This document shows positions 32,493 to 35,221 of a stretch of DNA of 42,867 nucleotides, piece after piece (positions within the stretch are counted from its first letter, which is position 1; each line of letters begins with the position of its first letter). Below the pieces are notes generated by a model, which saw nothing but the letters and a program-made list of their open reading frames with translations, searched no databases and was not told the origin of the DNA. The stretch is from contig CAYYQL010000021.1 of assembly GCA_964473825.1 (NCBI GenBank), positions 1 through 42,867 of the forward strand, given 5' to 3'. The position numbers were made by a program, and so were the translations under genes. The DNA comes from an uncultured archaeon (GTDB lineage: Archaea; Asgardarchaeota; Thorarchaeia; Thorarchaeales; Thorarchaeaceae).

Positions 32493-32855
32493 TGAACTAG
32501 TCAGAAAATGGAGGTTTGGAAAAGAAAGGAGTCGGAGGCCGCCTGGGAAGGGATGTTGAGAAATCTGGGGGTGTTGTAGAAATCTACGTTCGGCCTCCGT
32601 ACGAAAGACAGAAACTACTGCGATTTCAAGGCTTGTAATACACGCTAGGGCAGCAGAGTGCCTCTTGGTGTTCAATCATGCTCTGACGAGTTCTCATCGT
32701 TTTCCCTGCTCGAAAAGATAATGATGATGAAACCAACACGAGCTATCGTAGCGTCTTGTTCAGACTGTTATTCGTTGATTTCTCCACACGGAGTCTGATT
32801 GGGATTCATTAAAATATCGGCGCCCAGTATCAAGAAACTGTACAGGTGAGGGCGG

Positions 32856-33932
32856 ATGGTACGGGTTGCTCACATCTCGGACTCGCATCTTGGCAGCGCG
32901 ATATTCCAGCTATCAGAACGTAAAGAAGATGCGAGAAAGTGCTTGAAGAAAGCAGTCGATATGGCACTACGACACTCTCCTGACATTCTTGTTCACACGG
33001 GAGACCTGTTCGACAGCCCGTTTCCCTCAAACGAGGACCTCAGCTTTGTGATGGGTCTCTTCAAAAACATAAACGACGACACCTGTAAAATCGTTGTCCA
33101 TGGAAATCACGACCTACCATATGGGAGCCACAGACAGCTCAGTCCGATACTCAGCATTGAGAATGCGGGGCTGATCCGCTCCACGGGAACAGAAGACCAC
33201 GCCTCGTTCAGTATCGACTGTGATGGAAGAGCCGTCGATATCCATCTAATCTCATGGACCAGAGAGAGGCGGATTCGTCATCTTCGGGGTCAACACACTC
33301 ATCCATCTGACAATGTCAATCTCCTCTTCGCCCATGATCTTCCTGTTGAGAAACACGAGTTGCCGATTTCCTTTGATTACATTGGCATCGGCCATTCCCA
33401 TAGTTTCTGGTTGGATGAAGAATATGGAATTGGCCGACCCGGTTCAACCGGTATCGTGGACTGGAAGAAGGAACAAGGATCGAGAAAGAAGCTCATTGTA
33501 GCAGATGTAACGAGGGAGGGAAATGAGTATTCCACCGAAACTCTCAACGATGTGCGCGAATTCAAGTTCATCACCGGCCTGAGCGTGACAGGCATGGGAC
33601 CAGAAGAAATCAGTTCATACATGAAGAAACGTATAGATGAATTGTCCATCAAGAAGCAGGACAGACCCGTCATAATTATTGAGGTTGGGGGAACAATCGA
33701 TAGCGAAACTGAACAAGCTATCAACAGGACAGAGATACTTCAATATGGCGAGAAGAGATGTGACCCCCTATTCTTTCATATAGAACCCAGATGGCATGTA
33801 TATGGGCCTCGTGCTGTTGAATTGTCAGAACCACTCAATGCGGAGAAATCCATTGTCCAGTACCTGAAACAGACCAAGGAGTATGACCCACAAGAAATGG
33901 TCAGTCTATACCATCACATCATGGGGCGATAA
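32856..33932 (+). CDS. mre11: Mre11/SbcD-family DNA repair nuclease
   Basis: HISDSHLG, TGDLFD, GNHD, AH, GHSH and PGS; adjacent to an SMC-like ATPase. Confidence 0.88.
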   Translation: MVRVAHISDSHLGSAIFQLSERKEDARKCLKKAVDMALRHSPDILVHTGDLFDSPFPSNEDLSFVMGLFKNINDDTCKIVVHGNHDLPYGSHRQLSPILSIENAGLIRSTGTEDHASFSIDCDGRAVDIHLISWTRERRIRHLRGQHTHPSDNVNLLFAHDLPVEKHELPISFDYIGIGHSHSFWLDEEYGIGRPGSTGIVDWKKEQGSRKKLIVADVTREGNEYSTETLNDVREFKFITGLSVTGMGPEEISSYMKKRIDELSIKKQDRPVIIIEVGGTIDSETEQAINRTEILQYGEKRCDPLFFHIEPRWHVYGPRAVELSEPLNAEKSIVQYLKQTKEYDPQEMVSLYHHIMGR

Positions 33933-33934
33933 TC

Positions 33935-35221
33935 GTGATAAAGGAGATCGTACTGCGCAATTTCAAGCTCTTTCGGGACCAGACATTTTCATTCGAGTCA
34001 GGGACCACCGCGGTAGTGGGGCCTAACGGCTCGGGAAAGACAACGATCCTCGAGGCCATCGAATTCGCGCTCTTTCGACGGGTCACTCGAAAGGAGAAGA
34101 GCATCCCCAAGGTTGAGGAACTCATCAGGCATGGACGCAAAAAGGCAGTCGTGGAGCTTGAATTCATTGCCCCGGTCAATGGACGAACGTATCGTGTCGT
34201 TAGAAGCATCCATCCCGGAAAGACGAACGCTGACCTCTTTGTCAAAGGAAACAGTGATCCGGTCGAGTCAGGTGCCACCAGGGTCGATGATGAGATCGAG
34301 AAGCTTCTGGGGTTGGACAGACACGCATTCGCTGCCCTCACATACGTCCGTCAAGGGGAGATTGACCGACTCTCACGGCTTCAGCCCAAGAAGAGAAAAA
34401 ACAGCCTTTATGATATGATGGGCCTAGGTATGTATGCAGATGCCCAATCAAGAATAAAGAGCAAAATGAGTAGTCTTAGAAAACAGCTGAAGATGCTCCA
34501 AACGCAAAAAGAACGGCTCCTAGAGATTCGCAAACACTTGCCAGCTGAAGAAGAACTCAAGAAAGCGATGGACTCACTGGAATCAATCAGAGCCTCTCTG
34601 CAAGACGGGACTGAATTGGAGATCGTTCAAGAATTGCTAGCCAAAGTTCAAAGCTCGATAGATGAAATAGACCGACAGATAGAGTCTGAAGAACTCACTG
34701 AGGTCCCTGCAGAGTTGAAACAGCAGAAGGCCTTGGCGGGAAACCTGGAACGTATCATCAGTACGATTCCTCAAATCGCAGAGGAGCAACTTCGACCCGC
34801 TATCAGAAACGAGGCACGGGCAATCTTCTTGAGTATTTTCGGAGACAGATATAGTGACATCACAATAACTGATGATTATGACATCCAGTTATACAACCTG
34901 ACGGGTAACCGTGTTCCGCTCATGGCAGCCTCGGGTGGAGAGGATGTGTGTGTGAATTTTGCACTCAGAGTTGCCGTCAACACTGCACTGCAGAAACAGT
35001 CGTTCAGAGAGAGGACACCGGCACTAATCATCCTTGATGAGCCAGGGGCCGGATTGGACTCACAGAGAAGAAGATGGATGCCAGAAGCGATTGCCGGTCT
35101 GAAGACCGTTGAACAAGTCTTGGTCGTCACGCATATGGAAGAGCTGAGGGAGGGGGCCGATAGAGTCTTCTCATTGATTCCCCAAGGAAAGAGCCGACAG
35201 CCGGTCGTTGAGGTAAACTAG
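33935..35221 (+). CDS. Rad50/SbcC-like SMC-family ATPase, unusually short and without a zinc hook
   Basis: LRNFK, GPNGSGKTT, Q-loop YVRQGEI, SGGE, LIILDEP and VVTH; only ~120 aa of coil between the head lobes. Confidence 0.9.
   Translation: MIKEIVLRNFKLFRDQTFSFESGTTAVVGPNGSGKTTILEAIEFALFRRVTRKEKSIPKVEELIRHGRKKAVVELEFIAPVNGRTYRVVRSIHPGKTNADLFVKGNSDPVESGATRVDDEIEKLLGLDRHAFAALTYVRQGEIDRLSRLQPKKRKNSLYDMMGLGMYADAQSRIKSKMSSLRKQLKMLQTQKERLLEIRKHLPAEEELKKAMDSLESIRASLQDGTELEIVQELLAKVQSSIDEIDRQIESEELTEVPAELKQQKALAGNLERIISTIPQIAEEQLRPAIRNEARAIFLSIFGDRYSDITITDDYDIQLYNLTGNRVPLMAASGGEDVCVNFALRVAVNTALQKQSFRERTPALIILDEPGAGLDSQRRRWMPEAIAGLKTVEQVLVVTHMEELREGADRVFSLIPQGKSRQPVVEVN

What the first reader, a model, noticed from the sequence alone, without database searches (positions are those of the whole stretch)
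32856..35221. Mre11 coupled to a miniature, hook-less Rad50/SbcC ATPase
Seen in sequence: a nuclease with all five Mre11/SbcD phosphoesterase motifs is followed 2 nt later by a 428-aa ATPase with every head motif intact (Walker A, Q-loop, SGGE, DEP, His switch). It has only ~120 residues between the two head lobes and a single Cys in the whole protein, so no CxxC zinc hook. The frame is uninterrupted, and no herA or nurA is adjacent. Established: archaeal Rad50 and bacterial SbcC are typically about twice this length or more, with long coils joined by a zinc hook, and archaeal mre11-rad50 often clusters with herA-nurA. Inference: a distinct 'mini-MR' complex that cannot use the long-coil/hook DNA-end sensing mechanism. 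It may be a second, specialised nuclease for hairpins, linear foreign DNA or defence. This is the best candidate for an undescribed system here.
Basis: partly seen in the sequence, partly recalled or inferred. Interest (0 to 1): 0.78.

Follow-up and report, generated by a model that had tools for sequence, protein, structure and literature searches.

The report
Hook-less miniature Mre11-Rad50 nuclease pair
A group of Asgard archaea (Thorarchaeota-like) carries, beside its normal DNA-break repair genes, an optional second Mre11-Rad50 nuclease whose Rad50 has only a short arm and no zinc hook. It is a natural minimal version of a machine whose long arms and hook are usually thought indispensable.

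Summary
Two bases after its stop, a GTG opens a 428-aa Rad50-type ATPase (33935-35221) with every head motif, one Cys and no CxxC.

It is not an assembly artefact. 120 relatives measure 394-446 aa and none has a CxxC. The nuclease gene sits directly upstream in every one of the 13 loci compared.

The head is Rad50 by sequence, fold and tree. It groups with an undescribed Rad50-like clade that has a membrane-type hydrophobic apex.

The same genome has a hooked 695-aa Rad50 with Mre11 and HerA, and a separate NurA-HerA pair. Both are near-universal in the family (79/81 and 81/81 genomes). The mini pair is in only 41/81. It is cleanly missing from the same chromosomal site in some genomes and is a decayed remnant in one. 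It is therefore an accessory second MR.

Most likely it is an M2R2 ATP-gated head-only clamp nuclease that cannot tether DNA or form a ring. Whether it serves repair or defence is open.

I found no description in the literature I could reach. This scan had already flagged the same family in other genomes. Verdict: new variant of a known kind, interest 0.6.

The parts
32809..32816 (+). TTAAAATA, a TATA-box-like element about 40 nt upstream of the Mre11 start. A purine-rich GGTGAGGG lies at 32845-32852. Together they are a putative archaeal promoter and ribosome-binding site for the two-gene operon.
   Evidence: Read by eye from the sequence. Inference only; no transcript data.
32856..33932 (+). 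Mre11-like metallophosphoesterase, 358 aa (P0001): nuclease domain, capping domain and a C-terminal two-helix tail (residues 329-340 and 345-356) where Mre11 carries its Rad50-binding domain.
   Evidence: Pfam Metallophos E 3.4e-9. NCBIfam Mre11_Sulfo matches end to end (residues 4-348, 79.7 bits, below the cut-off). Five motifs are invariant. AlphaFold2 pLDDT 90. Foldseek top hits are M. jannaschii Mre11 5dny_A and 3av0_A, E about 1e-18 to 5e-19.
33935..35221 (+). Mini-Rad50 ATPase, 428 aa (P0002), GTG start 2 nt after the Mre11 stop.
   Evidence: Pfam AAA_23, SMC_N and SbcC_Walker_B. Both head halves match NCBIfam Rad50 models (165.5 bits). PDB profile search: MjRad50 E 5e-49. AlphaFold2 pLDDT 88.6. 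Foldseek top hits are Rad50 head constructs 5dny and 3auy, E about 1e-24.
33935..34426 (+). N-terminal head lobe (residues 1-164): Walker A at residue 29, Q-loop at 139.
34427..34840 (+). Short coiled-coil insert (residues 165-302), made of helices 165-201, 205-221, 226-249 and 252-302. Kinks lie at the invariant L202-P203 and at 250-251. The tip loop at about 222-225 is variable, and there is no Cys. The base is conserved (P279, A282, E283, P288, E293-R295).
   Evidence: DSSP of the model and conservation in alignment A1. 0 of 120 family members have a CxxC.
34841..35218 (+). C-terminal head lobe (residues 303-428): signature SGGE 333, Walker B/D-loop 367, His switch 400.

Best explanation
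This is a functional two-gene operon for a second, accessory Mre11-Rad50-type nuclease. Shown: a complete Mre11-fold phosphoesterase, and a Rad50-lineage ABC ATPase whose coiled coil is cut to at most about 55 residues per arm and ends in a variable loop with no zinc hook. Both genes are conserved where present, and they sit beside a hooked Rad50-Mre11-HerA cluster that is near-universal in the family. Inferred mechanism: the two proteins form an M2R2 head complex, as the engineered short-coil MR constructs used for crystallography do. ATP engages the two Rad50 heads, DNA is clamped on the head and between the coil stubs, and ATP hydrolysis gives the Mre11 dimer access to cut. Without a hook or long arms, the Rad50 protomers are joined only through the Mre11 dimer and ATP. 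The complex therefore cannot tether distant DNA ends or form the closed ring that canonical MR/SbcCD uses to scan DNA and recognise ends. It should act as a local processing nuclease on ends, hairpins or blocked ends. Because it lies among oxygen-detoxification genes, I favour a role in repair of stress-induced damage over defence, but only weakly.
For: ORFs, motifs and coupling. Rad50 identity of the head: NCBIfam Rad50_Sulf 165.5 bits against RecF 63.6. PDB profile search: MjRad50 5e-49 against PtuA 2.8e-9, OLD 2e-7 and RecF 7e-7. Foldseek: Rad50 heads E about 1e-24. In the head tree rooted on SMC the mini clade (support 98) is nested in Rad50 diversity. Mre11 identity of the partner. Purifying selection: 25 homologues have 69% mean column identity, with an invariant head and coil base and a variable coil tip. 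Length is 394-446 aa and there is no CxxC in 120 of 120. Pairing: the Mre11-like gene is directly upstream in all 13 loci compared (the window and 12 fetched loci), and no third gene is universally linked. Separate hooked Rad50, Mre11 and HerA, and a NurA-HerA pair, in the same genome. Distribution in 81 family genomes: mini 41, hooked core Rad50 79, orphan HerA 81. Complex prediction for P0001 + P0002: weak support only. ipSAE is 0.46 against a best control of 0.00. That mark was reached by 58 of 80 solved complexes and 2 of 110 mismatched pairs, but a passing score of 0.60 or under was seen in only 7 of those 80 and in both passing mismatches. The runs agree in at least 93% of contacts and the partner pLDDT is at least 76. 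MR complexes are solved, so the pass may reflect likeness to known structures. Neighbours: flavodiiron protein and rubrerythrin in the window; a rubredoxin-reductase-like gene convergent to the ATPase in 10 of 13 loci.
Against: There are no biochemical or expression data. The complex prediction is only weak. In yeast and human MR, coil truncation or hook loss cripples function in vivo (from my own knowledge of the literature; Lee et al. 2013, PMC3642328, report that coils are needed for ATM activation). A head-only MR might therefore be poorly active, or might do something other than cutting. The pair is dispensable: it is absent from the syntenic site in G103, G046 and G027 and decayed in G140. 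The link to oxygen-stress genes may be nothing more than inherited synteny among related genomes.
Confidence: 0.7

Rival explanations
1. It is an anti-virus or anti-plasmid defence nuclease. A head-only Rad50-like ATPase senses foreign DNA (ends, palindromes, replication intermediates) and licenses the Mre11-like nuclease, by analogy with ATPase-nuclease defence modules such as MAD3-MAD4, PARIS, Gabija and Lamassu.
For: The distribution is patchy: 41 of 81 genomes, with clean absence at the syntenic site and one pseudogene. The best PADLOC match is mad3, full length, 129 bits. MAD3 is a short SMC/Rad50-like ATPase that forms a 2:2 complex with a nuclease (PMC13662399). The sister clade (P0274) lies directly beside an MmeI/Eco57I-type restriction-modification gene.
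Against: No PADLOC system model fits the nuclease; its only hit is PDC-S10 at 21.6 bits. There are no defence genes next to the pair in 13 loci. The chromosomal position is stable, among housekeeping and oxygen-detoxification genes. Identity between genera is high (55-61%), higher than for the core Rad50 (44-54%), which is not the usual pattern of a fast-evolving defence gene. No relatives were found in viral collections. SbcCD, a repair nuclease, is also patchy in bacteria (my own knowledge).
Confidence: 0.2
2. It is a non-nucleolytic or vestigial remnant. A truncated Rad50 paralogue on its way to loss, or re-used as a DNA-binding or regulatory ATPase, with the Mre11 partner no longer acting as a nuclease.
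For: It is dispensable in half of the family and decayed in G140. The coil and hook, normally needed in vivo, are gone.
Against: Every catalytic residue of both proteins is invariant across genera and across two GTDB families. The reading frames are intact in about 40 genomes. Head conservation is very high. That is not the signature of decay.
Confidence: 0.07
3. It is an assembly or annotation artefact: an in-frame deletion, or a collapsed repeat inside a normal hooked rad50.
For: None beyond the unusual length.
Against: 120 relatives from NCBI, JGI, ENA and Logan assemblies measure 394-446 aa and have no CxxC. Only three full-length representatives at 50% identity exist, all 432-443 aa, followed by a score gap (380 to 249 bits) down to longer proteins. 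No close relative carries a hooked Rad50 at this locus.
Confidence: 0.01

Closest known systems
Archaeal Mre11-Rad50 (Methanocaldococcus jannaschii, Pyrococcus furiosus; PDB 3av0, 5dny, 3auy, 3qkt)
   Same: It has the same two-gene arrangement, the same Mre11 fold and motifs, and the same Rad50 head with all ATPase motifs. These are the best sequence and fold matches. The natural protein is about the size of the engineered short-coil Rad50 constructs that were crystallised.
   Different: There is no CxxC zinc hook. About 130 residues lie between the head lobes, against about 500-650 in canonical forms. It is not clustered with herA or nurA. It scores far below the NCBIfam equivalog cut-offs (165 against 1000 bits). 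It is an accessory second copy, not the cell's main MR.
Bacteriophage T4 gp46/gp47, the shortest-coil MR described so far (coils of about 100 A according to the review PMC7752040)
   Same: Both are compact MR-type nucleases with shortened coils.
   Different: From my own knowledge, gp46 is about 560 aa and keeps a zinc hook. Phage homologues are only 24-28% identical over the N-lobe. The protein here is shorter and has no hook.
Bacterial SbcCD
   Same: Both are non-essential, patchily distributed MR-type nucleases. This makes SbcCD a plausible functional analogue (hairpin and blocked-end processing).
   Different: SbcC is about 1000 aa with a hook and long coils. The match here is weaker (TIGR00618 109.7 bits; PDB 6s6v E 3.7e-10).
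MAD3-MAD4 of the Pseudomonas MADS defence system (PMC13662399)
   Same: Both pair a short SMC/Rad50-like ABC ATPase without long coils with a nuclease. MAD3-MAD4 forms a 2:2 complex. The PADLOC mad3 model aligns along the full length (129 bits).
   Different: MAD4 is a Toprim nuclease, not a metallophosphoesterase. MADS is an eight-gene operon with methyltransferase and kinase genes, and nothing of that kind is near this pair. The head is closer to Rad50.
Uncharacterised Rad50-like ATPases with a hydrophobic (two-TM-like) apex (P0131, P0274, P0132)
   Same: They are the sister clade in the head tree (support 96). They are also hook-less and also sit directly downstream of a ~380-aa Mre11-like gene. 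The two Mre11-like partners are 26% identical over their full length.
   Different: They are 596-679 aa, with longer coils and a ~40-residue hydrophobic stretch at the apex. One copy lies beside a restriction-modification gene. They are themselves undescribed.

Membership tests
Rad50/SbcC ATPase of the Mre11-Rad50 complex | Bipartite ABC/SMC-type head with Walker A, Q-loop, signature, Walker B, D-loop and His switch | tested here: met
   All motifs are present and invariant.
Rad50/SbcC ATPase of the Mre11-Rad50 complex | Head closer to Rad50 than to SMC, RecN, RecF, OLD or PtuA by sequence, fold and phylogeny | tested here: met
   NCBIfam Rad50 165.5 bits against RecF 63.6. PDB MjRad50 5e-49. 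Foldseek. Nested in Rad50 in the tree rooted on SMC. RecN, RecF and OLD sequences were not in the tree.
Rad50/SbcC ATPase of the Mre11-Rad50 complex | Long antiparallel coiled coil inserted between the head lobes | tested here: not met
   Only about 125-138 residues lie between the lobes, in four helices. The other Rad50s fetched here measure 596-1123 aa.
Rad50/SbcC ATPase of the Mre11-Rad50 complex | CxxC zinc hook at the coil apex | tested here: not met
   The single Cys is C339, in the head. 0 of 120 family members have a CxxC. All 15 hooked Rad50s examined have exactly one central CxxC.
Rad50/SbcC ATPase of the Mre11-Rad50 complex | Encoded with, and bound to, an Mre11/SbcD nuclease | tested here: inconclusive
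   Adjacency is met in all 13 loci compared. Binding has only weak support: ipSAE 0.46 against a best control of 0.00, and possibly from likeness to solved MR complexes.
Rad50/SbcC ATPase of the Mre11-Rad50 complex | Reaches the curated NCBIfam Rad50 equivalog cut-off | tested here: not met
   165.5 bits against a cut-off of 1000 (Rad50_Sulf); 144.3 against 700 (PRK03918).
Rad50/SbcC ATPase of the Mre11-Rad50 complex | DNA-stimulated ATPase that controls Mre11 nuclease activity | not testable with these tools
   Needs purified proteins.
Mre11/SbcD nuclease | Five calcineurin-like phosphoesterase motifs with their metal ligands | tested here: met
   D9/H11, D50, N84/H85, H160 and H180/H182 are present, and invariant or nearly so.
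Mre11/SbcD nuclease | Nuclease plus capping domain fold | tested here: met
   Model pLDDT 90. Foldseek hits to Mj, Pf, Tm and eukaryotic Mre11, E 1e-13 to 5e-19.
Mre11/SbcD nuclease | C-terminal helix-loop-helix Rad50-binding domain | tested here: inconclusive
   Two terminal helices, 329-340 and 345-356. The alignment to full-length MjMre11 5dny_A spans 385 columns. No interface was returned by the complex job.
Canonical archaeal nurA-herA-mre11-rad50 operon | mre11-rad50 adjacent to herA and nurA | tested here: not met
   The neighbours are an LTD-domain protein and a HAD hydrolase. herA and nurA lie on other contigs.
MADS defence system (MAD3-MAD4 module) | MAD3-type ATPase paired with a Toprim nuclease (MAD4) inside an eight-gene mad operon | tested here: not met
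   The mad3 HMM matches (129 bits), but the partner is a metallophosphoesterase with no mad hit, and there are no methyltransferase or kinase neighbours. Architecture of MADS from PMC13662399.

The most novel reading that the evidence does not exclude
This would be a naturally selected minimal MR machine. It would show that the zinc hook and long coiled coils are not needed for a cellular Mre11-Rad50 nuclease to be useful. Together with its sister clade (hydrophobic, possibly membrane-inserted apex), it would define a previously unrecognised branch of hook-less Rad50 paralogues with alternative apex solutions. Such a head-only complex might load on DNA without needing a free end, because there is no ring to thread. 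That would give it a substrate range (internal lesions, circular DNA) that canonical MR lacks.
Probability: 0.35. Interest if true: 0.75.

Novelty: new variant of a known kind. Interest (0 to 1): 0.6.

Why it matters
What the Rad50 coiled coils and zinc hook are for is a long-standing question in DNA repair. Proposed roles include tethering, ring-based end sensing and allosteric control of the head. So far the question has been addressed mainly with engineered truncations, which cripple the complex in vivo. Here a lineage has kept a hook-less MR with a coil of about 80 A or less under purifying selection, next to a hooked one in the same cell. That gives a ready-made comparison: the same organism, two MR machines, one with arms and one without. 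Biochemistry and structures of this pair would show which activities need only the head. The pair also shows that Asgard archaea carry up to three different MR-type systems.

Tried and rejected
1. In-frame deletion or collapsed assembly. Rejected, because the length and the absence of a hook are conserved in 120 relatives.

2. A recent duplicate of the genome's own hooked Rad50. Rejected. They share only 25-29% identity, and the core Rad50 lies on a separate long branch.

3. The mini pair as the missing MR partner of the orphan NurA-HerA. Not supported. The orphan HerA is in 81 of 81 genomes whether or not the mini pair is present.

4. A third conserved subunit. None found. Only the two genes are shared by all 13 loci. 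The frequent convergent neighbour is a rubredoxin-reductase-like oxidoreductase, and it is absent from the window.

5. Viral origin. No relative was found in IMG/VR. INPHARED gave only distant gp46-like hits.

6. A known defence system. PADLOC gives only single-protein ATPase matches (mad3, LmuB, PbeC, AriA) and nothing for the nuclease.

7. Literature. Searches for Rad50 with Asgard, and for coil truncation, found no description of this family. The ABC-ATPase classification of Krishnan et al. 2020 could not be opened, so prior mention there cannot be excluded.

8. Coil geometry.
Full report
**Observation**

P0001 (window:32856-33932, 358 aa) carries the five Mre11/SbcD phosphoesterase motifs: DSH 9, GDLF 49, GNHD 83, AHD 159 and GHSH 179.

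Its TAA stop at 33930-33932 is followed by two bases and then the GTG start of P0002 (33935-35221, 428 aa). P0002 has Walker A at residue 29, the Q-loop at 139, SGGE at 333, LDEP at 367 and the His switch at 398-401. It has a single Cys (C339), inside the invariant SGGEDVCVNF. A TATA-like TTAAAATA and a purine-rich stretch precede the first gene (by eye only).

**What the proteins are**

P0002:
- Pfam gives AAA_23, SMC_N and SbcC_Walker_B.
- Its two head halves match the NCBIfam archaeal Rad50 models best (165.5 bits). That is far below the equivalog cut-offs, because the middle of those models has no counterpart.
- A profile of 25 homologues finds M. jannaschii Rad50 in the PDB at E 5e-49. 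PtuA, OLD and RecF appear only at 1e-7 to 1e-9.
- The AlphaFold2 model (pLDDT 88.6) has a normal bipartite head and four helices between the lobes: 165-201, 205-221, 226-249 and 252-302. Its best Foldseek matches are the engineered short-coil Rad50 head constructs 5dny, 3auy and 3av0.
- In the alignment, the head and the coil base (P279, A282, E283, P288, E293-R295) are invariant. A kink motif, L202-P203, is also invariant. The tip at about 222-225 is variable and carries indels.
- I read this as an antiparallel coil of at most about 55 residues per arm, roughly 80 A, ending in a plain loop. This is an estimate from secondary structure, since I had no coordinates.
- For comparison, a review gives about 100 A for phage MR, 250-300 A for bacterial and archaeal MR, and about 600 A for eukaryotic MR (PMC7752040).

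P0001:
- It matches Mre11_Sulfo end to end.
- It folds with pLDDT 90 and ends in two helices, where Mre11 has its Rad50-binding domain.
- It resembles M. jannaschii Mre11 most closely.

A complex prediction for the two proteins gave weak support only. The ipSAE was 0.46 against a best control of 0.00. That mark was reached by 58 of 80 solved complexes and 2 of 110 mismatched pairs, but a passing score of 0.60 or under was seen in only 7 of those 80 and in both passing mismatches. The runs agree in at least 93% of contacts and the partner pLDDT is at least 76. Because MR complexes are solved, this may reflect likeness rather than evidence.

**Not an artefact: a conserved family**

- The 120 best homologues in the 5.8-billion-protein collection measure 394-446 aa (median 429). 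They are 55-94% identical and none has a CxxC.
- Sources name them 'AAA family ATPase' or 'SbcCD ATPase subunit' of Thorarchaeota, and a few of other Asgard candidate phyla.
- At 50% clustering the family has only three full-length representatives (432-443 aa). Scores then drop from 380 to 249 bits.
- The Mre11-like gene is directly upstream in every locus with enough flank. No third gene is shared by all 13 loci.

**Place among Rad50s**

I built a head-domain tree of 70 sequences rooted on the genome's two SMC proteins.
- The mini clade has support 98.
- It is sister (support 96) to P0131, P0274 and P0132. These are 596-679-aa Rad50-like proteins with no hook and a ~40-residue hydrophobic stretch at the coil apex. 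They also lie downstream of an Mre11-like gene.
- The two clades together are nested inside Rad50 diversity.
- The mini-Rad50 is not a recent copy of either hooked Rad50 type found in its family.

**The rest of the repair kit**

In the window's genome (95.7% complete):
- Contig C10 carries a 430-aa ORF, HerA (588 aa), Mre11 (437 aa), Rad50 (695 aa, Pfam zinc hook, CxxC at 343), and then 544-aa and 491-aa ORFs.
- Contig C2 carries a lone NurA-HerA pair.
- C2 and C13 also carry an SMC and an SMC-like protein.

Among 81 genomes of the same GTDB family:

| Gene | Genomes | High-quality genomes |
|---|---|---|
| Hooked 695-aa Rad50 | 79 of 81 | 23 of 23 |
| Orphan HerA | 81 of 81 | 23 of 23 |
| 934-aa Rad50 in a classical nurA-herA-mre11-rad50 operon | 7 of 81 | 5 of 23 |
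| Mini-Rad50 | 41 of 81 | 13 of 23 |

Outside this family, a sample of 201 genomes of the phylum held the mini-Rad50 in only one genome, from a second family of the same order (38% identity). The other families matched only through long, hooked Rad50s of about 700-950 aa.

The absences are real, at least in part:
- In G103 (97% complete, 679-kb contig) the flanking genes are contiguous and the pair is missing. G046 and G027 show the same.
- In G140 only a remnant of the ATPase survives, between rubrerythrin and the oxidoreductase. It covers residues 158-427, has a stop and frame breaks, and the Mre11 gene is gone.

The pair is therefore accessory. It is strongly conserved where kept, and it has been lost repeatedly.

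**Context**

- The pair keeps the same chromosomal neighbourhood across genera.
- In the window it follows a flavodiiron protein, rubrerythrin and a large LTD-domain protein. A HAD hydrolase follows it.
- In 10 of 13 loci a rubredoxin-reductase-like oxidoreductase converges on the ATPase gene.
- No defence genes, integrases or viral relatives were seen.

**Mechanism**

I commit to an M2R2 ATP-gated head-only clamp nuclease. It would have no tethering function and no ring-based end sensing, and it would act locally on ends, hairpins or blocked ends (confidence 0.7 for the kind of machine). I weakly prefer a role in repair of stress damage over defence (rival at about 0.2). The patchy distribution, the full-length match to the mad3 model (MAD3-MAD4 is a 2:2 ATPase-nuclease defence module, PMC13662399) and the restriction-modification neighbour of the sister clade keep defence alive as an explanation.

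**Novelty**

I found no paper describing this family. One relevant classification paper could not be opened. This scan had already flagged the same family on other genomes, and two follow-up reports reached the same core reading. I re-tested that reading here and add five points:
- distribution numbers for all four gene sets across the family;
- the clean absences at the syntenic site and the pseudogene in G140;
- the sister clade with a hydrophobic apex;
- the oxygen-detoxification context;
- the lack of any link to the orphan NurA-HerA.

Noticed in passing
L067:4855-7824 (JGI 3300031862 Ga0315280_10000869); proteins P0131, P0274, P0132: The sister clade of the mini-Rad50 consists of 596-679-aa Rad50-like ATPases with no CxxC. 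The coil apex instead holds a ~40-residue hydrophobic stretch that looks like two transmembrane helices. Each lies directly downstream of a ~380-aa Mre11-like gene. In L067 the pair follows a 924-aa MmeI/Eco57I-type methyltransferase-endonuclease gene. This may be a membrane-anchored MR-like nuclease. It appears undescribed.
   Followed up: partly
G000 contig C10, L013:4899-14525: The family's near-universal 'core' Rad50 (695 aa, CxxC at 343) is very divergent. Its signature reads SFGD instead of SGGE, and it sits on a branch of length 2.33 in the head tree. It scores lower against archaeal Rad50 models than the mini-Rad50 does (123 against 144-165 bits). It lies in a six-gene cluster with HerA, Mre11 and three ORFs (430, 544 and 491 aa) that have no family match.
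   Followed up: partly
G000 contig C2, L077:7367-10040: A stand-alone NurA (384 aa) and HerA (503 aa) pair, with no mre11 or rad50 beside it. The HerA is present in 81 of 81 family genomes at 60-94% identity. In this lineage the classical four-gene operon is therefore split.
   Followed up: partly
L075:3077-9743 (G128): A classical nurA-herA-mre11-rad50 operon with a 934-aa hooked Rad50 occurs in only 7 of 81 family genomes, and not in the window's genome. Some Thorarchaeota-like genomes therefore carry three different MR-type systems.
   Followed up: partly
L086:3375-4181 (G140 contig C26): A decayed remnant of the mini-Rad50 gene, covering residues 158-427 with an in-frame stop and frame breaks. 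The Mre11 gene and the N-terminal lobe are deleted. The remnant lies between rubrerythrin and the rubredoxin-reductase-like gene.
   Followed up: yes
window:27398-29315, and the convergent gene in L045:10518-11708 and 9 other loci: An oxygen-detoxification gene set surrounds the pair: a flavodiiron protein (ODP + flavodoxin), rubrerythrin and, in relatives, a rubredoxin-NAD+-reductase-like oxidoreductase. The oxidoreductase is missing from this position in the window.
   Followed up: partly
window:29568-32492: A 974-aa ORF with an N-terminal hydrophobic segment and a weak Lamin Tail Domain match (28.8 bits, below the cut-off) lies just upstream of the pair. In G197 its homologue (48% identity) sits on the other side of the pair, so it is not part of the module.
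   Followed up: no
window:36071-38464 (minus strand): Two ORFs (435 and 339 aa) have no Pfam match. The 435-aa one is conserved at 50-59% identity in relatives, whether or not the mini pair is present.
   Followed up: no
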